Origin: a bacterium
GTDB taxonomy: Bacteria > UBA8248
Direction: 5' to 3'
Assembly: GCA_965200245.1 (NCBI GenBank)
Contig: CBDATS010000004.1
Span: 256,001-320,000, forward strand
Length of the DNA: 64,000 nucleotides
Made by a program: the position numbers and the translations under genes. Shown here piece after piece: positions 38,657 through 45,650 of this stretch (position 1 is its first letter; the number at the start of each line of letters is the position of its first letter). The notes beneath the pieces were generated by a model that saw nothing but the letters and a program-made list of their open reading frames with translations, was not told the DNA's origin and made no database searches.

Positions 38657-39973
38657 ATGCGAAGCGAAAAAGACCTGCTCGATTCGGCGAAAAAATACAG
38701 CTTTCGGGGCCGGGTGGACAAATCCGTATTTTCGGGTCCAGTCTTCGTTCGCGGCGAGGGTTCTATCGTCGAGGACGTAAACGGCAAACAATACATCGAC
38801 TTCAACTCAGGCCAGATGTGCTCAGCCCTCGGACACAACCACCCCATCGTGACCGACGCCATCAAGAAAAGCTGCGATGAGATGATCCATGCGCACAGCA
38901 GTTTCTTCAACGAGCAGGAAATCATCCTTGCCGAACGCCTGGGCGCGCTGCTGCCACCACCATTGGAGAAAAGCCTGTTTCTGGGTTCCGGTGCAGACGC
39001 CAACGAGGCGGCGGTGACTATCGCCCGCAAATTCACTGACGGCTTCGAGGTCGCGAGTCCCCACATAAGCTTTCACGGCCTCTCCGACACGGCGCGCTCG
39101 CTCACCTTCGCAGGCTGGCACAGCGGGCACGGGCCCCTTTCGCCCGGGAGCATGGCCATGGTCGCACCCTATTGCTACCGCTGCCCCTTGAGCCAGAAAT
39201 TTCCCGATTGCGAGATCGCCTGTCTCGACACAAGTTTCGAACTCATCGACGCGCAAACGAGAAGCACGCCCGCCGCCGTCATCACCGAACCCCTGTTCAG
39301 CGCGGGCGGAGTGGTAGAGCCGCCGCCCGGGTGGCTCAGGAAGCTCAAGGAAAACTACGAGGAGCGGGACATGCTCCTCATCGTGGACGATGAGCAGACA
39401 GGACTCGGAAAGCTAGGCACGATGTTCGGCTTCGAGAAGGATGAGGTGGTACCCGATATCGTCACGCTCGCGAAACACTTTGGCGGTGGCGTGAGCATCA
39501 GTTCGGTCTCGACGAGCACCGAGGTCGAGGACAAGGTGGCCTCTACCGAGTTTGTCGTCACCCACTCACACACCAACGATCCACTAGCCTGCGCCGCGGG
39601 TGTGGCGAGCCTCGATGTCATCGAGGGAGAGGATGTGCCTGCCAAGGCCAGAAAAATCGGCGCTCACCTGAGAGAGCGCCTCACATGGCTGGGCGAGCAG
39701 TATGAAATGGTGGGTGACATCAGGGGCCGGGGTCTCCTTCAGGGGATAGAACTCGTTGAAAACAGGCGCACAAAAACACCCGCTACCAGACAGGGAAGCG
39801 AGATCAACCGCATATGCCTCGAGAACGGTCTCATATTCAGCCAGCGGCGCGGGGGGAGCGTCCTTCGCTTCGTGCCGCCGGCCACGACGACGGAAGGACA
39901 GATGGATCAGGCGATAGACATCCTCACCGACGCGATAGACAAGGCGAGCATTCGCGGCGGTGTTTCGGAATGA
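38657..39973 (+). CDS. Class III PLP aminotransferase, 2,2-dialkylglycine decarboxylase-like
   Basis: DFNSGQM..LGHNHP, EP, DDEQTGLGK, LAKHFGGG, GDIRGRGLLQG; GGAGG RBS. Confidence 0.85.
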   Translation: MRSEKDLLDSAKKYSFRGRVDKSVFSGPVFVRGEGSIVEDVNGKQYIDFNSGQMCSALGHNHPIVTDAIKKSCDEMIHAHSSFFNEQEIILAERLGALLPPPLEKSLFLGSGADANEAAVTIARKFTDGFEVASPHISFHGLSDTARSLTFAGWHSGHGPLSPGSMAMVAPYCYRCPLSQKFPDCEIACLDTSFELIDAQTRSTPAAVITEPLFSAGGVVEPPPGWLRKLKENYEERDMLLIVDDEQTGLGKLGTMFGFEKDEVVPDIVTLAKHFGGGVSISSVSTSTEVEDKVASTEFVVTHSHTNDPLACAAGVASLDVIEGEDVPAKARKIGAHLRERLTWLGEQYEMVGDIRGRGLLQGIELVENRRTKTPATRQGSEINRICLENGLIFSQRRGGSVLRFVPPATTTEGQMDQAIDILTDAIDKASIRGGVSE

Positions 39974-40010
39974 CGGCTGGTTTCTCCTTCCATGCTTTCG
40001 ATTCGGTCAA

Positions 40011-40502
40011 ATGATCCACGTCGCCATTTATCATCCGGGAATTCCGCAGAACACCGGAAACATAGGCCGCTTGTGCGTGGGGATGGATGCACATCTGCAC
40101 ATCATCGGACCTGCGAAATTCGATTTTTCGGACAGTTCCCTTAAAAGAGCGGGCCTTGATTACTGGGCCGACGTAAAACTCACGATACACGAAGACGAAA
40201 ACCTCTTTTTCGAGTGGCTGGGCCAGAGAACGCCCTGGCTCATCACGAAATTCGGTGCATCACGATTCGACAGGGTCTCATATCAAGACGAGGATATACT
40301 TCTACTTGGGAACGAAAACACCGGCTTGCCCGATGCGTGGCACGCGCGCTGGCCCGATCGGCGGATTTACGTGCCCATGCCCGGGCCGATCCGCTCATAC
40401 AACCTCGCCAATACCGCTGCCATCGTCCTCGCGCAGACGTTCGTTCAACTGAATGATGCGGACGTCACGAACCATGGTGGCGGGCATGACCCCATCAACT
40501 GA
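40011..40502 (+). CDS. trmL: tRNA (cytidine/uridine(34)-2'-O)-methyltransferase
   Basis: PGIPQNTGNIGR, LKRAGLDYW, GNENTGLP, RSYNLAN. Confidence 0.9.
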   Translation: MIHVAIYHPGIPQNTGNIGRLCVGMDAHLHIIGPAKFDFSDSSLKRAGLDYWADVKLTIHEDENLFFEWLGQRTPWLITKFGASRFDRVSYQDEDILLLGNENTGLPDAWHARWPDRRIYVPMPGPIRSYNLANTAAIVLAQTFVQLNDADVTNHGGGHDPIN

Positions 40503-40642
40503 AACTCGATGCTTCCGTTTTCCATAAACAAACACTCACCTGCAAAACAGAAAGTACCGTTGGGCGGGTAAAACTTGCAAAACCTGCAAACACCACAAAA
40601 ATGTGTTCAAATTGTGGACGAAACCGAGATATTATGAGATAG
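40502..40642 (+). pseudogene. IS200/IS605 TnpB fragment (RuvC/zinc-ribbon region)
   Basis: KLDASVFHKQTLTCKTESTVGRVKLAKPANTTKMCSNCG resembles TnpB ILDAxW..F...L.YKAE..G..V..V.P..TS..CS.CG. Confidence 0.6.
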
Positions 40643-40664
40643 CCAAAAACAGGACTTCGACTGG

Positions 40665-41597
40665 ATGAGTCCCTGGATTACATCGACCGGAAATACATAA
40701 ATGTTATTGGCATCCGGTTGGACAAGCTCAGGAAAACAGATTCGAGTCCAGAGGGTACATATTCGTATATGGAGCATCTGCATTCTGCAAGTGTCACAAC
40801 TGCGATGTGTCTCTGAATTTCAAAGGATTTCTACAAAAAATGGACCCCTCTCTCTATGTAGACAGCACCCCCTTGAAAAATGGAAGGGAAAGAAAGACAT
40901 AATGTATACAGAGAACCCCGAACCCCGGCCGGAAATCGACCATATGGTTGCCCTGGAAAAATCGGGGGATAAAACTGCCATGGAATTTGTCCTTCGCAGA
41001 AGGATTCCCATGGATAGAATAAAGGAGTTGTTTTATACCCCCAACACGAACAAACTGATGAGGTCACATCCAAAATATCGCGATGGTTCGTATGGAGATT
41101 CGCCAAGGATAATCATACCTTATTACAACACAGCCAACGAACTGGTAGGAGTCCAAGGCAGAGCACTCACACACAATGAAGCGAGATACGTTTCCATGAA
41201 GATCATCGAAGACGAACCCATGATCTATAACCGGAACAGGATAAAATACAACGAGAGGCTATATGTCACTGAAGGAAGCTTTGATTCCATGTTTTTCCCC
41301 AATGCAATAGCCGCCTGCGGTATTGCCCTGAATTCATTGGATATAAAACACGAGGATGTGGTGTATATCCTGGATAATGAACCCAAGAACACCAATGTCA
41401 TCAACGAAGCGAGGAAACTACAGAAATCCGGCAAGCGAATGTTTATATGGCCTCCATCCATCAGACACAAGGACATTAACGACACGATAGTCAAGGAAGG
41501 GTTCAGCCAACGCGAGATGATCGATATCATCGAAAACAATATTTACGATGGGCTGTCCTTGCTAATGAAAATTTCAACCTGGCAGAATAGAAATTAG
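40665..41597 (+). pseudogene. T4-like phage DNA primase (gp61), N-terminus deleted and frameshifted
   Basis: DYIDRKYIN...LDK / RGY...KCHNC..FLQKMDP in broken frames; intact PRIIIPYY...QGRAL, YVTEGSFDS, LDNEPKN, IWP...KDIND TOPRIM motifs. Confidence 0.82.
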
Positions 41598-41601
41598 TCA
41601 A

Positions 41602-42040
41602 TTGCACGAACTGCCCAGCCTGTATCAAACCTTCACATACAATAGCAAATACACCAGATTGCCCGAATCCGAACATCGCAGGGAACATTGGAAAGAAACT
41701 GTGAAAAGGTATCTCGATTTTTCGGTGACCACTTGAAAAACATCGGATATGAGTTGAGTGAACAAGAAAGAAATATGAAAAAGAAATCCTGGAATTCAAT
41801 GCAATGCCATCAATGCGGTGCATGATGGCTGCCGGTAAAGCCTTGGACAAGAATTATGTAGCCGGATACCACTGCTCATTTCGTCTGGGATGGGACTCGC
41901 TGCCAAGAACCCTGCCAGGCCTCTTCTTCATGGACGAGATTGCCCATGAGGCGAAAACCGCACTTTGCTCGGAAATATCCGTACTCGAAAGTACCGCCAA
42001 CCCCATAACATATCTGACGCAGATATCCAGTCAACGATGA
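41602..42040 (+). pseudogene. Class II (B12-dependent) ribonucleotide reductase fragment, phage type
   Basis: LPSLYQTF..SKYTR....RREHWKETVKRYLDF then, after a frameshift, MPSMRCMMAAGKALDKNYVAGYHCSF. Confidence 0.7.
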
Positions 42041-42052
42041 CCATCCCAACTC

Positions 42053-43210
42053 TCACGCCCTCATCTCTACCCAACCGCGTGCCTGTGCACTTTGAAGACA
42101 GATTTCGGCAAGCTGAACGTCGCGTAATCCGGCAGAAAGATCGGCATAGAAAGGCTCATCGCCCGCCACGTGACGGATGAAGCGCTCCCAGCCGTGGCGG
42201 TAGGGGTTCTTGTAGGTATCCGTGTCGGGTTCTTCTTGCCAGTTTTCACGGTAATCCACTGAGACATCCATGGTGTCCGCGTCGCGGCCCATCAGGAAAC
42301 CGCGCACCAAAGGCGTAGTGCCCGCTGCCTGCTTCCAGCATTTTCTTAATCCCGCCACCGCGGAGCCACCGGTTCCATCTATCTGGAAGGTCACCAGGTC
42401 CTCGCGCCTGACCCTTGTGGACCACGAACTCAGAATAGCACCGCGCGCCCCGCTTTCGAGTTCTAGCAGAGTGTGCGCGTTATCCTCTACGTCGACGCGG
42501 AAGCACTCCCCCCCTTCATCGGCGCGCTCGGTCTGTCCCGTCCAAGAGAGCACCGCCACGCGCGCAATCGGCCCGAGAACCCCCTCGACAACGTAACGCC
42601 AGTGCGGGTGCATGTCCGATACGAGGCCTCCGCCGCCCGCCTTTCGATAGTTCCAGCTCGGACGCTGGCATTCCGCCTCAATGCCGTCGAACACCCACCA
42701 GCCGAATTGAATCTGAAAACCGATGATCCGGCCCAGAAAACCACTCTCTACCACCCGCCTGAGTTTCAGAAACCCAGGCAGGAAGAGCTTGTCTTCCACT
42801 GCGCCGTGCTTGAGTCCCTTGGCTTGCGCCGCACGCAAAAGCTCCATTCCCTCCTGAACGCCGGGCGCGACGGGCTTTTCAGCATAGATGTGTTTCCCTG
42901 CGTCAATGGCTTGCTTAAGGACTTCCACCCGCAAATGTGTGGACGCGGCATCGAAGAAGACGGGATAGGCCGCGTTTCCGAGGGCCGCCCCCAGGTCCGT
43001 CGTCCAAGCAAGGCCGCCGTGTTCGGCCGCCAGCCTCGCTAGACGATCTTCATTCCTGCCAACAAGCAATAGCTTCGGCAGGATTCTCTCACCGCCAACT
43101 TCGAGGCCGCCCTCATGGATAATGGGCATGAGAGAGTTTCTTAGATGCTGGAAGGAGCAGATGCCGCCCGTCGCCCCGTGCAGAATGATTCCCAACTCCC
43201 GTGTCGCCAT
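42053..43210 (-). CDS. Gfo/Idh/MocA family oxidoreductase
   Basis: GKHIYAEKP, DKLFLPG, QRPSWNYR, HWRYV. Confidence 0.88.
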   Translation of the reverse strand: MATRELGIILHGATGGICSFQHLRNSLMPIIHEGGLEVGGERILPKLLLVGRNEDRLARLAAEHGGLAWTTDLGAALGNAAYPVFFDAASTHLRVEVLKQAIDAGKHIYAEKPVAPGVQEGMELLRAAQAKGLKHGAVEDKLFLPGFLKLRRVVESGFLGRIIGFQIQFGWWVFDGIEAECQRPSWNYRKAGGGGLVSDMHPHWRYVVEGVLGPIARVAVLSWTGQTERADEGGECFRVDVEDNAHTLLELESGARGAILSSWSTRVRREDLVTFQIDGTGGSAVAGLRKCWKQAAGTTPLVRGFLMGRDADTMDVSVDYRENWQEEPDTDTYKNPYRHGWERFIRHVAGDEPFYADLSAGLRDVQLAEICLQSAQARGWVEMRA

Positions 43211-44476: not shown

Positions 44477-44553
<77 letters not shown>

Positions 44554-44564
44554 TCAATATATTT

Positions 44565-44593
44565 TATCTACTCCGGTGTGGACGTTCTGTCAA
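44565..44593 (-). promoter_or_regulatory. Sigma70-type promoter of tRNA-fMet
   Basis: TTGACA-17 nt-TAGATA(AAAT) on the minus strand immediately upstream of the tRNA. Confidence 0.6.
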
Positions 44594-44704
44594 GGAGAGG
44601 GAGAATTCCGGGTAGTGTCTTATTTTGAAATTTTCTTGTGTTTCCCGCGCCTTTCAGGCTTCGGCTCGCAGGTTTTCAATCCATTCCATACCGCGAAGTC
44701 TGGT

Positions 44705-44899
44705 ATCGATTCCAGCGGACTTGCGAGGCGTCATTATGCCGCCTTATGGGGCAAGATTTCTTGCCCTTATGTAGACGCCCTTGCGGGCATTTACCTGGCC
44801 TTCCGTTTGAATTTCCAATACTTCACCTGTTGCAATCCGGGCAACACGAACGGCACACCCGATAACATCTCCGGGTCTTTTCTCTCCCCGTGGGCCAAT
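44705..44899 (-). pseudogene. Remnant of a small basic IS-associated protein (GPKGEKRPADVIG-type)
   Basis: IGPRGEKRPGDVIGCAVRVARIATGE...RARNLAP-stop, with ..VRW in a shifted frame; no start codon. Confidence 0.5.
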
Positions 44900-44900
44900 A

Positions 44901-45149
44901 TTATCCTCCCGTTCGCTCAATCAAGGCCCGAAGGGCAACCATAGACTCCTCGTGCTTTTTCATGAATTCCTCATGTCTCTTGGCGGAAGCATCCATGTAT
45001 TCCTCATGTCTTCTGATGGACCCTTCTGCCTGACGAGCAGACAGTTCTGCCCTTTTTTTACCCTCACTTTTCATGACGGAAATCCCGTGCCATATACCGA
45101 TAGCCACAATATACGACGGGATCAGGCTTAGAATCTGAAACCAATCCAT
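44901..45149 (-). CDS. Small membrane-anchored coiled-coil protein with (R/K)HEE repeats
   Basis: Hydrophobic N-terminus, then RRHEE/KRHEE/KKHEE and ALRALIERT; AGGAAG RBS. Confidence 0.65.
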   Translation of the reverse strand: MDWFQILSLIPSYIVAIGIWHGISVMKSEGKKRAELSARQAEGSIRRHEEYMDASAKRHEEFMKKHEESMVALRALIERTGG

Positions 45150-45317
45150 TTTGGATTCTTCCTATTCATGATTATTATATTTACGCAAAAAACATACAGA
45201 CAGTTTGACAGGAAAACAAGCATAATCAACTTTGGAATTTTTCAGAATGAGACGCTTCCGGATTTCGGAGGATGCAGCGGAAAGCATACTTCTTATCCAG
45301 AAAACGAAACCCGGGAT

Positions 45318-45650
45318 TCATTTTTTCGACGGAATGAACTCGTAGACGACTTCCCCTTTCTTGACCAGTCCCAGGTCTTCACGCGCAATTTCCTCGATCG
45401 CCCGCTCGTCGGAACGCAAGGATCGAATCTCCGAACGCAATTTCTTGTTTTTCGTCTTGATTTCCGATATCTCTTTTTTGAGTTCGGAAACGCGCTCCTT
45501 GTTCACGATGACGGCAAGGTACCCGTCTCGGCCCAACAATGCGGAACCGAGCAGCAAGACGATGACACCCGCGCACATCCAGAAGAATAGTCTGGCTTTG
45601 GGAGATTGGCCCCTGGTGGATGATGGTCCTGCTTTTCGCATCGTGCCCAT
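45318..45650 (-). CDS. ftsB: Septum formation initiator FtsB/DivIC
   Basis: TM + coiled coil + IEEIAREDLGLVKKGE. Confidence 0.85.
   Translation of the reverse strand: MGTMRKAGPSSTRGQSPKARLFFWMCAGVIVLLLGSALLGRDGYLAVIVNKERVSELKKEISEIKTKNKKLRSEIRSLRSDERAIEEIAREDLGLVKKGEVVYEFIPSKK

What the first reader, a model, noticed from the sequence alone, without database searches (positions are those of the whole stretch)
40665..42040. Chromosomal fossil of a T4-like lytic phage: gp61 primase + class II RNR, no integrase
Seen: a ~1.4 kb AT-rich insert between trmL and a Gfo/Idh/MocA gene. The primase retains a long open frame covering the catalytic/TOPRIM part, while its zinc-ribbon N-terminus is deleted (first CxxC missing) and frameshifted. 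A fragmented NrdJ-type RNR follows. No integrase, att repeat or structural genes are visible. Known: gp61-type primases and primase-RNR adjacency typify T4-like myophages, which are considered strictly lytic. Inference: illegitimate capture of lytic phage DNA that records an otherwise unknown phage of this host. The preserved ~230-codon TOPRIM frame (ATG near 40902) could be a co-opted or dominant-negative antiviral fragment.
Basis: partly seen in the sequence, partly recalled or inferred. Interest (0 to 1): 0.8.

Follow-up and report, generated by a model that had tools for sequence, protein, structure and literature searches.

The report
Decayed T4-like phage fragment in chromosome
A sponge-associated bacterium carries a broken 1.4 kb piece of an unknown T4-like virus (a primase gene and the start of a ribonucleotide reductase gene) that overwrote most of a small regulator gene at a variable spot in its chromosome; it is a real but most likely dead molecular fossil.

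Summary
An AT-rich island (window 40503-42052, GC 0.43 against 0.55-0.60 in the flanks) lies between trmL and a Gfo/Idh/MocA gene. It encodes a gp61-type primase. The first zinc knuckle is deleted, the second lies in another frame, and an intact 231-codon catalytic frame spans 40902-41597. The first ~92 codons of a class II RNR follow, with two frameshifts. The closest relatives found in each collection are 35-41% identical, so the source phage is unsampled. A primase followed by an RNR gene is the usual order in viral contigs of this family (75 of 81). One such contig carries the T4 capsid and portal genes. An independent study's contig spans both junctions with no differences, so this is not a chimera.

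Two points are new. The last ~160 nt are not RNR but the C-terminal remnant of a lineage-specific Cro/C1-type HTH gene. That gene fills this same site in 4 of 22 sister species; others have an empty site.

Best reading: a phage fragment was captured by illegitimate recombination, replaced most of the resident gene, and is now decaying. I found no support for co-option. The fragment occurs in no sister genome and the RNA evidence is weak. Interest is modest.

The parts
39960..40502 (+). trmL-like SpoU methyltransferase, left flank (host backbone)
   Evidence: PF00588 at 4.5e-26. It is 75-85% identical in DNA in the 13 sister loci with a full-length match.
40503..40678 (.). AT-rich spacer of undetermined origin (phage upstream DNA or old intergenic DNA). 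The left junction lies somewhere in it.
   Evidence: GC is 0.41. There is no similarity to sister inserts or to 81 viral loci (tblastx best E 0.29).
40679..40744 (+). Probable primase N-terminal segment ('YIDRKYINVIGIRLDKLRK', frame of 40502). It ends at a deletion of about 16-17 codons that removed the first CxxC knuckle.
   Evidence: Weak tblastn match to P0002 residues 3-24 (E 0.17). It fits the family consensus 'DxKY...L..FKxK'. The deletion is inferred from the spacing to 'RGY'.
40720..40863 (+). Second half of the primase zinc ribbon (RGY...CKCHNC...FL...D..LY), in the frame of 40501
   Evidence: gp61-family profile positions 36-83, E 1.5e-10. tblastn 4e-8 to 5e-9.
40860..40875 (+). Frameshift between the zinc ribbon and the catalytic part (near a C5 run)
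   Evidence: Change of homologous frame seen. The exact base is not determinable because the linker is poorly conserved.
40902..41597 (+). Intact 231-codon frame for the primase catalytic (TOPRIM) part, from ATG to TAG. The mechanical ORF runs from 40701 through out-of-frame zinc-ribbon DNA.
   Evidence: phrog_47 at 8e-37. Profile positions 118-336 at 5.3e-84. It keeps 25 of 27 columns that are at least 90% conserved; true family members keep 22-27 of 27-29.
41602..41715 (+). Class II RNR (NrdJ-like) N-terminus, piece 1 (residues ~3-38)
   Evidence: PF17975 at 1.3e-5, 26.1 bits against a cut-off of 26.4. phrog_367 at 5e-6. tblastn to roseophage CRP-13 NrdJ, 43% identity.
41716..41776 (+). RNR piece 2, in a third frame ('FFGDHLKNIGYELSEQE'). 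It is bounded by frameshifts at a T5 run (~41714-41718) and in an A-rich stretch (~41765-41772).
   Evidence: Three-frame reading against the CRP-13 and Watermoore N-termini printed. The assignment is by eye; this piece has no significant score of its own.
41777..41881 (+). RNR piece 3 (residues ~58-92, 'MPSMR...AGYHCSF'). Homology stops here, which marks the right end of the phage DNA.
   Evidence: tblastn 57-66% identity to phage class II RNRs. The matches end at query residue 40 of 42.
41882..42040 (+). C-terminal remnant of a resident, lineage-specific Cro/C1-type HTH gene, read in frame with RNR piece 3. Stop codon at 42038-42040.
   Evidence: Family HMM positions 153-182 of 185 match 41915-42004 (conditional E 9.6e-5; rank 2 of 81,011 genome segments). 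Six family members match at their C-terminal ends at E 1e-4 to 4e-3. DNA at 41923-41957 aligns to the homologous place in the G022 gene, and 0 of 300 shuffles reach the score. GC rises to 0.53.
42053..43210 (-). Gfo/Idh/MocA oxidoreductase, right flank (host backbone)
   Evidence: PF22725 at 1e-21. It is 77-85% identical in DNA in 14 sister loci.

Best explanation
This is a dead fragment of the replication-gene module of an unsampled T4-like phage. It holds a complete gp61-type primase gene plus the first ~92 codons of the class II ribonucleotide reductase gene that followed it.

The fragment entered the chromosome of a sponge-associated bacterium by illegitimate (non-site-specific) recombination. 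It landed at a polymorphic intergenic locus and replaced roughly the first three quarters of a resident Cro/C1-type HTH gene. Only the last ~45 codons of that gene remain.

The capture is recent. The fragment occurs in no sister species, its GC is still 0.43 in a ~0.58 genome, and there are no nonsense substitutions. It is decaying by indels: one ~50-nt deletion and three frameshifts. The 231-codon TOPRIM frame is most likely open only because the fragment is young.

Shown: the homologies, the boundaries on the right side, the polymorphic site, and the reality of the junctions. Inferred: the recombination mechanism, that the DNA came from an infection of this host, and the lack of function.
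For: 1. Phage identity.
- The primase is 34-37% identical to T4-like phage primases. 2372 phage records match, and 2337 of them cover at least 80% of the query.
- The family profile matches PDB 8dvf 'DNA primase' at 1e-87. Bacterial DnaG chains score only 6e-10 or worse.
- RNR pieces are 57-66% identical to phage class II RNRs.
- The host genome has no other copy of either gene.

2. One source molecule. The primase stop and the RNR start are 4 nt apart.
- In S-CREM2 the primase is followed directly by nrdA.
- Of 81 IMG/VR primase loci, 75 have an RNR gene downstream on the same strand: 54 class I-like and 21 class II.
- 35 of these are within 150 nt, and 3 of the 35 are class II.
- One class-II-type contig (G042) also has T4 Gp23 (3.7e-132) and the T4 portal (7e-180).

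3. Replacement at a hotspot.
- The trmL|Gfo gap is 24-184 bp in 8 sister loci.
- It is 0.8-0.9 kb at normal GC in 2 loci.
- It is AT-rich, with 1-3 HTH genes, in 4 loci.
- The window keeps only the tail of such a gene.

4. Not an artefact. A 36.5 kb contig from a different study spans 40300-42300 with 0 differences and 0 gaps at word depth 14.8. Five runs hold at least 0.84 of the sampled words.

5. No mobility genes. No Ku in the genome.

6. Unsampled source. The best identity is 41% in 1.84 billion representative proteins, 41% in IMG/VR and 35% in JGI metagenome contigs.
Against: - The catalytic frame is intact over 231 codons and keeps 25 of 27 highly conserved positions, whereas all 4 lesions fall in the 519 nt of flanking phage coding DNA. 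If lesions fell at random over 1215 nt, the chance of that is about (519/1215)^4 = 0.03. This is my own post hoc arithmetic.
- RNA-library contigs cover 40990-41257 and 41241-41657 at depth 2.7-3.7, similar to trmL at 2.1-3.2. The DNA may therefore be transcribed.
- The left junction could not be located.
- No microhomology or pre-insertion allele of the same species is available, so the recombination mechanism is untested.
- The window primase sits on a very long branch (1.62 against a median of 0.24, quick tree only). That fits an unsampled lineage but could also reflect post-capture drift.
- Infection of this host, as opposed to uptake of free DNA, is not shown.
Confidence: 0.8

Rival explanations
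1. The zinc-ribbon-less TOPRIM frame (40902-41597) has been co-opted. It would be expressed as a truncated primase that poisons the primosome of related phages, acting as a dominant-negative decoy defence.
For: - The frame is intact and its catalytic residues are kept.
- The lesions cluster outside it (post hoc p about 0.03).
- RNA-library contigs lie on it.
- Methionine-initiated ORFs of 228-248 aa that lack the zinc ribbon exist in public data (P0055, P0045, P0132, P0074).
Against: - It occurs in 0 of 22 sister species and 0 of 50 other genomes of the phylum, so retention by selection cannot be shown.
- No promoter-like excess was found (4 sites found, 3.1 expected).
- PADLOC gave only one marginal, partial match (RT_UG29, 1.9e-4, 16.9 bits).
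- DNA carry-over in the RNA libraries is not excluded, and depth is under 4.
- The only variant seen (X6) has one non-synonymous and one synonymous change (codon reading is mine).
- The short database ORFs may be partial gene calls.
Confidence: 0.07
2. The island is a chimeric assembly or binning artefact: phage reads joined into a bacterial contig of a metagenome-assembled genome.
For: The genome looks like a MAG (15 contigs, contamination 8.1%). There is an abrupt GC change. All three frameshifts lie near short homopolymers.
Against: - The island is 1.4-1.55 kb, deep inside a contig, with host genes on both sides.
- An independently assembled 36.5 kb contig from another study reproduces both junctions and every frameshift exactly. 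The tool warns that a near-identical contig may share its source with this DNA.
- Five runs in two studies hold the stretch.
- The right junction fuses to a remnant of the gene expected at that site.
Confidence: 0.02
3. The DNA is real and foreign, but it does not record a lytic infection of this host. It came from a temperate or other mobile relative that carries a gp61-like primase, or it was taken up as free environmental DNA from a phage of another sponge bacterium.
For: - The closest relatives are only 35-41% identical, so the lifestyle and host of the source are unknown.
- Sponge tissue concentrates many microbes and phages (abstract of PMC12284385, from the search listing only).
- A CinA gene lies in the window, though that is not evidence of competence.
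Against: - Every identified relative in the phage collection is from large T4-like groups.
- IMG/VR relatives have CheckV-implied sizes of ~100-220 kb (my division of length by completeness).
- No integrase or other element gene is nearby.
- That T4-like phages are strictly virulent is textbook knowledge and was not tested here.
Confidence: 0.12

Closest known systems
T4 gp61-type DNA primase (phrog_47; PDB 8dvf/8gao 'DNA primase')
   Same: Same family. The profile matches end to end. The second zinc knuckle, the TOPRIM acidic residues and the C-terminal 'W-K/R' end are present, and relatives are 330-345 aa long.
   Different: Only 34-41% identical. The first CxxC knuckle is deleted and the gene is split over three frames. 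It sits in a bacterial chromosome with no other phage genes.
Primase-RNR gene pair of T4-like cyanophages and uncultured marine myophages (e.g. Synechococcus phage S-CREM2 gp162-gp163; IMG/VR loci L072, L077, L081)
   Same: Same order and strand, with a tight junction of 4 nt here. The junction is a 4-nt overlap in S-CREM2 and 9-62 nt in the three class II loci.
   Different: Here the RNR is cut after about residue 92. The class II type is the minority partner (21 of 75 loci).
Small variable segments and polymorphic loci generated by illegitimate recombination (Touzain et al. 2010, PMC2884548; abstract, outline and section 14 read)
   Same: A short segment at a fixed backbone position differs between related genomes. 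An ancestral segment has been replaced by incoming DNA without site-specific machinery.
   Different: That study compared strains of E. coli and two other species. Here the comparison is between species of one genus, and the incoming DNA can be identified as coming from a virulent-type phage.
Cryptic or defective prophages
   Same: Phage-derived genes decaying in a chromosome.
   Different: There is no integrase, att site, repressor module or structural gene. The source family has no known lysogenic cycle (textbook knowledge). The piece is only 1.4 kb.

Membership tests
gp61-type phage primase | Significant full-length similarity to the gp61 family profile | tested here: met
   Two pieces match: profile positions 118-336 (5.3e-84) and 36-83 (1.5e-10). 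The family profile matches PDB 8dvf at 1e-87.
gp61-type phage primase | N-terminal four-cysteine zinc ribbon (CxxC...CxxC) | tested here: not met
   The second knuckle (CHNC) is present in another frame. The segment with the first CxxC (about 16-17 codons) is absent.
gp61-type phage primase | TOPRIM catalytic core with conserved acidic residues | tested here: met
   All 13 invariant columns, including E124, D128, D158 and D191, are kept. 25 of 27 columns that are at least 90% conserved are kept.
gp61-type phage primase | Single uninterrupted gene of ~330-345 codons | tested here: not met
   Homology is spread over three frames, with one deletion and one further frameshift.
Class II (adenosylcobalamin-dependent, NrdJ-like) ribonucleotide reductase | N-terminal RNR_Alpha domain and similarity to annotated class II enzymes | tested here: inconclusive
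   PF17975 scores 26.1 bits against a cut-off of 26.4. tblastn to CRP-13 'adenosylcobalamin-dependent ribonucleoside-triphosphate reductase' gives 2e-13 over two pieces. No similarity to S-CREM2 class Ia NrdA was found.
Class II (adenosylcobalamin-dependent, NrdJ-like) ribonucleotide reductase | Catalytic barrel and cofactor-binding part (~540 further residues) | tested here: not met
   Homology ends at window 41881, about residue 92 of ~635.
Prophage or integrative element | Integrase or recombinase, att direct repeats, structural or lysis genes | tested here: not met
   21 ORFs between 27.4 and 54.1 kb are all metabolic or housekeeping, or have no match. The longest exact direct repeats are 10-12 nt; by my estimate about 3 ten-mers are expected by chance. 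There is no Gp23 in the genome.
Lineage-specific Cro/C1-type HTH family of the trmL|Gfo locus | N-terminal HTH (HTH_3 / HTH_26) plus a conserved C-terminal helix region ending '...F(I/V)D(E/Q)I..(K/E)AK' | tested here: not met
   Only the C-terminal ~45 codons are present in the window. No HTH part was found anywhere in G000 by the family profile.

The most novel reading that the evidence does not exclude
The open TOPRIM frame is not merely young. It may be kept as a truncated, zinc-ribbon-less primase that binds the helicase of related T4-like phages and blocks priming. That would be a defence built from a captured gene of a virulent phage. The trmL|Gfo locus would then be a hotspot where such anti-phage or regulatory cassettes are swapped.
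Probability: 0.07. Interest if true: 0.7.

Novelty: new member of a known kind. Interest (0 to 1): 0.33.

Why it matters
Fragments of virulent phage DNA fixed in a bacterial chromosome are seldom documented, because such phages have no integration route. This one is clean: both genes are identifiable, their order matches the phage family, and the overwritten resident gene can be named.

It gives physical evidence that DNA of an otherwise unsampled T4-like lineage reached the cytoplasm of an uncultured sponge-associated bacterium. That bacterium belongs to a small phylum, with only 51 species-level genomes held. The fragment is therefore a possible host link for sponge viromes.

It also illustrates how polymorphic small loci turn over by replacement. 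It does not reveal a new mechanism or a new functional system.

Tried and rejected
1. Search for the source phage. No relative above 41% identity was found in any collection:
- INPHARED phages
- the 5.8-billion-cluster protein search (2 relatives)
- 1.84 billion representatives
- IMG/VR
- JGI metagenome contigs

2. Profile scan of genome contigs with A3 and of viral contigs with the HTH alignment A2. I used the genome search on the phylum, a tblastn of phages (no match) and the protein search instead.

3. Left junction. Alignments of the first 260 nt after trmL across sisters and tblastx against viral loci gave nothing.

4. Att-like repeats. Only 10-12 nt exact repeats were found, at chance level.

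5. Promoter and terminator scan: not above shuffles.

6. Ku-dependent end joining as the mechanism: no Ku was found in a 95.8%-complete genome.

7. Raw-read run X9: only 3 reads were laid, 2 of them only partly. It is uninformative.

9. Primase tree, to place the window with class-II-linked primases. The window is an unresolved long branch, and only the quick tree finished.

10. Earlier notes of this scan: none bear on this locus.

11. Literature searches for documented captures of virulent-phage fragments. No directly comparable case appeared in the listings. This is not a claim that none is in print.

Full report
**What is there**

The window is G000:C4:256001-320000, from a 3.68 Mb genome in 15 contigs (completeness 95.8%, contamination 8.1%).

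Between a SpoU/TrmL methyltransferase gene (39960-40502, +; PF00588, 4.5e-26) and a convergent Gfo/Idh/MocA gene (42053-43210, -) lies a stretch with GC 0.41-0.44. The two flanking genes have GC 0.545 and 0.60. The stretch occurs once in the genome.

Among 21 ORFs tested on either side (27.4-54.1 kb), those with a Pfam match are ordinary metabolic or housekeeping genes: amidases, aminotransferases, an AMP-binding enzyme, DivIC, aconitase family and Trp synthase. There is no integrase and no phage structural gene. A tRNA-Met lies 2.4 kb away but does not abut the island.

**The primase**

- The mechanical ORF 40701-41597 (298 aa) matches phrog_47 'DNA primase' at 8e-37.
- tblastn against 50,697 phage records gives 2372 matching records, all below 60% identity. 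The best is Synechococcus phage S-CREM2 (37%), followed by T2, RB14 and similar phages at 34-35%.
- A profile of 21 relatives plus the window (A3) matches the 342-residue 'DNA primase' of PDB 8dvf/8gao end to end at 1e-87. Bacterial DnaG chains reach only 6e-10 or worse. That 8dvf is the T4 primosome is my recollection.
- In the genome the profile finds two pieces. Window 40929-41588 matches positions 118-336 (5.3e-84). Window 40720-40863 matches positions 36-83 in another frame (1.5e-10).
- The second piece is the second half of the zinc ribbon (RGY...CKCHNC...FL..D..LY).
- Upstream, in the third frame, 'YIDRKYINVIGIRLDKLRK' weakly resembles the family's N-terminal helix (E 0.17).
- Between it and 'SRGY' about 5 residues stand where the family has about 21, including the 'FRCPxCGDS' knuckle.
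- A second shift, near 40860-40875, separates the ribbon from the catalytic part.
- From the ATG at 40902 to the stop at 41597 the frame is open. It keeps all 13 invariant columns and 25 of 27 columns that are at least 90% conserved. Genuine family members keep 22-27 of 27-29 by the same count.

**The RNR**

Four nucleotides after the primase stop, 41602-41736 matches PF17975 RNR_Alpha (1.3e-5; 26.1 bits against a cut-off of 26.4) and phrog_367.

Two annotated phage class II enzymes align to this region. They are roseophage CRP-13 'adenosylcobalamin-dependent ribonucleoside-triphosphate reductase' and the Streptomyces phage Watermoore RNR.
- Residues ~3-38 align to 41605-41715.
- Residues ~58-92 align to 41777-41881, in a different frame.

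The intervening ~20 codons read sensibly only in the third frame. So there are two frameshifts, one at a T5 run and one in an A-rich stretch. Homology stops at '...AGYHCSF' (41881), which is about residue 92 of ~635. The class Ia NrdA of S-CREM2 does not match.

**The last 160 nt are something else**

No sister genome holds the island. With the 3.4 kb region as query, 21 of 22 genomes of the genus matched the flanks only. The island as a blastn query hit 0 of 14 fetched sister loci.

The trmL|Gfo gap is highly variable among these sisters:
- 24-73 bp in six loci (G002, G014, G005, G018, G006, G004), and 105-184 bp of GC-rich DNA in the two most distant (G001, G007).
- 819-894 bp of normal-GC repetitive DNA in G016 and G010.
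- AT-rich DNA (GC 0.44-0.47) of 0.9-3.4 kb in G011, G022, G003 and G021.

The AT-rich inserts encode one (G011, G022) or three tandem (G003, G021) proteins of about 180-245 residues. These proteins share 20-32% identity. They have a weak Cro/C1-type HTH (HTH_3 1.9e-5; HTH_26 1.4e-4) and a conserved C-terminal part.

The family profile finds these genes at full strength only at this locus (4 genomes). Two weak HTH-only matches occur elsewhere, and none in G000. Only 11 protein clusters in the 5.8-billion-cluster collection match, and no phage record does.

Window 41915-42004 ('PGLFFMDEIAHEAKTALCSEISVLEST...') matches the C-terminal end of this family by four measures:
- HMM positions 153-182 of 185, conditional E 9.6e-5. 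This ranks second of 81,011 six-frame segments of the genome, although the genome-wide E is only 0.67 (0.22 with the 18-sequence model).
- Six members match by blastp at E 1e-4 to 4e-3, each at its own C-terminal end.
- DNA at 41923-41957 aligns to the homologous place in the G022 gene with a score that 0 of 300 shuffles reach. The other comparisons were weaker: L016 12 of 300, L015 48, L019 137, L014 182 and L017 185.
- GC rises to 0.53 in 41882-42040.

The remnant has the position and orientation of the sister genes, so I take it as established. The phage DNA replaced the 5' three quarters of a resident HTH gene. The right junction lies between 41882 and 41914.

The left junction lies somewhere in 40503-40678. 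That stretch resembles neither the sisters nor the viral loci.

**One phage molecule of T4-like type**

- In S-CREM2 (Kyanoviridae) the primase gene is followed directly by nrdA.
- Of 81 IMG/VR loci with a gp61-like primase (31-41% identical to the window), 75 have an RNR large-subunit gene downstream on the same strand within 3.5 kb.
- 54 of the 75 are class I-like. Of those, 34 are above 45% identical to S-CREM2 NrdA, and 20 are only 21-25% identical and could belong to another class.
- 21 of the 75 are class II.
- 35 start within 150 nt of the primase stop, and 3 of those are class II (L072, L077, L081).
- 6 loci have no RNR gene, and one of them has under 1.5 kb of downstream sequence.
- Of five class-II-linked contigs tested, one (G042: 67 kb, CheckV completeness 37%) carries the T4 Gp23 capsid (3.7e-132) and the T4 portal (7e-180). 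The other four are fragments of 15-46% completeness without these genes.
- On a quick primase tree the RNR class changes at least 10 times. The window is an unresolved long branch, 1.62 against a median of 0.24. The careful tree did not finish.

**The source is unsampled**

The best identities are:
- 37% in cultured-phage records.
- 41% in IMG/VR.
- 35% in JGI metagenome contigs.
- 41% among the best 150 of 2468 matches in 1.84 billion representative proteins.

**Is it real?**

Five runs from two studies hold 0.84-1.00 of the sampled words of 40300-42300, which is 69% island. One of these runs is flagged as a possible source of this DNA. The record labels point to sponge metagenomes.

A 36.5 kb contig from a study other than the flagged source spans the whole stretch with 0 differences and 0 gaps, at word depth 14.8. 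The tool cautions that a near-identical contig may share a source with this DNA. Both junctions and all frameshifts are thus reproduced, so a chimera or a private assembly error is very unlikely.

Two RNA-library runs give short contigs on 40990-41257, 41241-41657 and 41889-42170 at depth 2.7-3.7, comparable with trmL at 2.1-3.2. DNA carry-over was not controlled for, so this is only a hint of transcription. One of those contigs differs at two sites, one non-synonymous (V to A) and one synonymous by my reading of the codons.

**Mechanism**

There is no site-specific machinery. No Ku was found, although the genome is 95.8% complete. The locus is polymorphic, and the event was a replacement rather than a simple insertion.

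This is the pattern that Touzain et al. 2010 (PMC2884548; abstract, outline and section 14 read) attribute to illegitimate recombination. In their account such recombination is sometimes assisted by one-sided homology, or occurs at fragile sites. I infer the following sequence of events:
1. A fragment of phage DNA was produced during an aborted infection, or taken up as free DNA.
2. It was joined into a break at this dispensable locus.
3. It has since been accumulating indels.

Its recency is inferred from three things: absence in all sister species, unameliorated GC, and the presence of indels without nonsense substitutions.

**Co-option?**

All four lesions lie in the 519 nt of phage coding DNA outside the 696-nt frame. 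The chance of that under uniform placement is about 0.03. This figure is post hoc and marginal.

Methionine-initiated relatives of 228-248 aa that lack the ribbon exist in public data, but they may be partial gene calls. There is no conservation data, no promoter signal and no meaningful defence-library match. I put co-option at about 7%.

**Verdict**

This is a genuine, well-delimited fossil of an unsampled T4-like phage in a sponge-associated bacterium. It sits at a polymorphic locus and is most likely non-functional. It is a new example of a known kind of event. It is of modest interest, mainly as a possible phage-host link.

Noticed in passing
Sister loci L015:1706-2254(-), L018:1285-1860(+), L016:1793-4427(-), L019:1711-3860(-): The trmL|Gfo gap is a hotspot in this genus. 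It holds a lineage-specific, AT-rich family of Cro/C1-type HTH proteins (~180-245 aa) in one or three tandem, highly diverged copies (20-32% identity). Only 11 protein clusters match in the 5.8-billion-cluster collection, and no phage record matches. Function unknown.
   Followed up: partly
L014 (G010) gap 1608-2501 and L017 (G016) gap 929-1747: At the same site two other sister genomes carry 0.8-0.9 kb of normal-GC DNA. The two share 85-89% identical blocks, and some blocks are repeated or inverted within the insert. This may be a small repetitive or MITE-like element.
   Followed up: no
IMG/VR loci L030-L109: Downstream of gp61-like primases, the RNR gene switches between class Ia-like, a distant class and class II at least 10 times on the primase tree. 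This suggests cassette-like replacement at a fixed genome position. L072 has a homing-endonuclease-like ORF (phrog_7363) just after nrdJ.
   Followed up: partly
Library proteins P0055, P0045, P0132, P0074 (228-248 aa): These are methionine-initiated gp61-like proteins without a zinc ribbon. They are either partial gene calls or naturally split primases in uncultured phages.
   Followed up: no
window 44550-45300: A second low-GC patch (0.41-0.52) lies beside tRNA-Met (44477-44553, -). It has small ORFs with no Pfam match (e.g. 44901-45149) and sits upstream of a DivIC-like gene (45318-45650, -).
   Followed up: no
window 40526 (run X6): An RNA-library contig covering the 3' end of trmL ends 24 nt after the stop codon. 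It has a 17-nt A-rich loose end that is not in the genome. This could be a polyadenylated 3' end or an assembly chimera.
   Followed up: no
whole genome G000: tblastn with a cyanophage class Ia NrdA and two phage monomeric class II RNRs found no host RNR at E <= 1e-3 other than the fragment itself. The host's own RNR must be of a type too distant for these queries, or unassembled.
   Followed up: no
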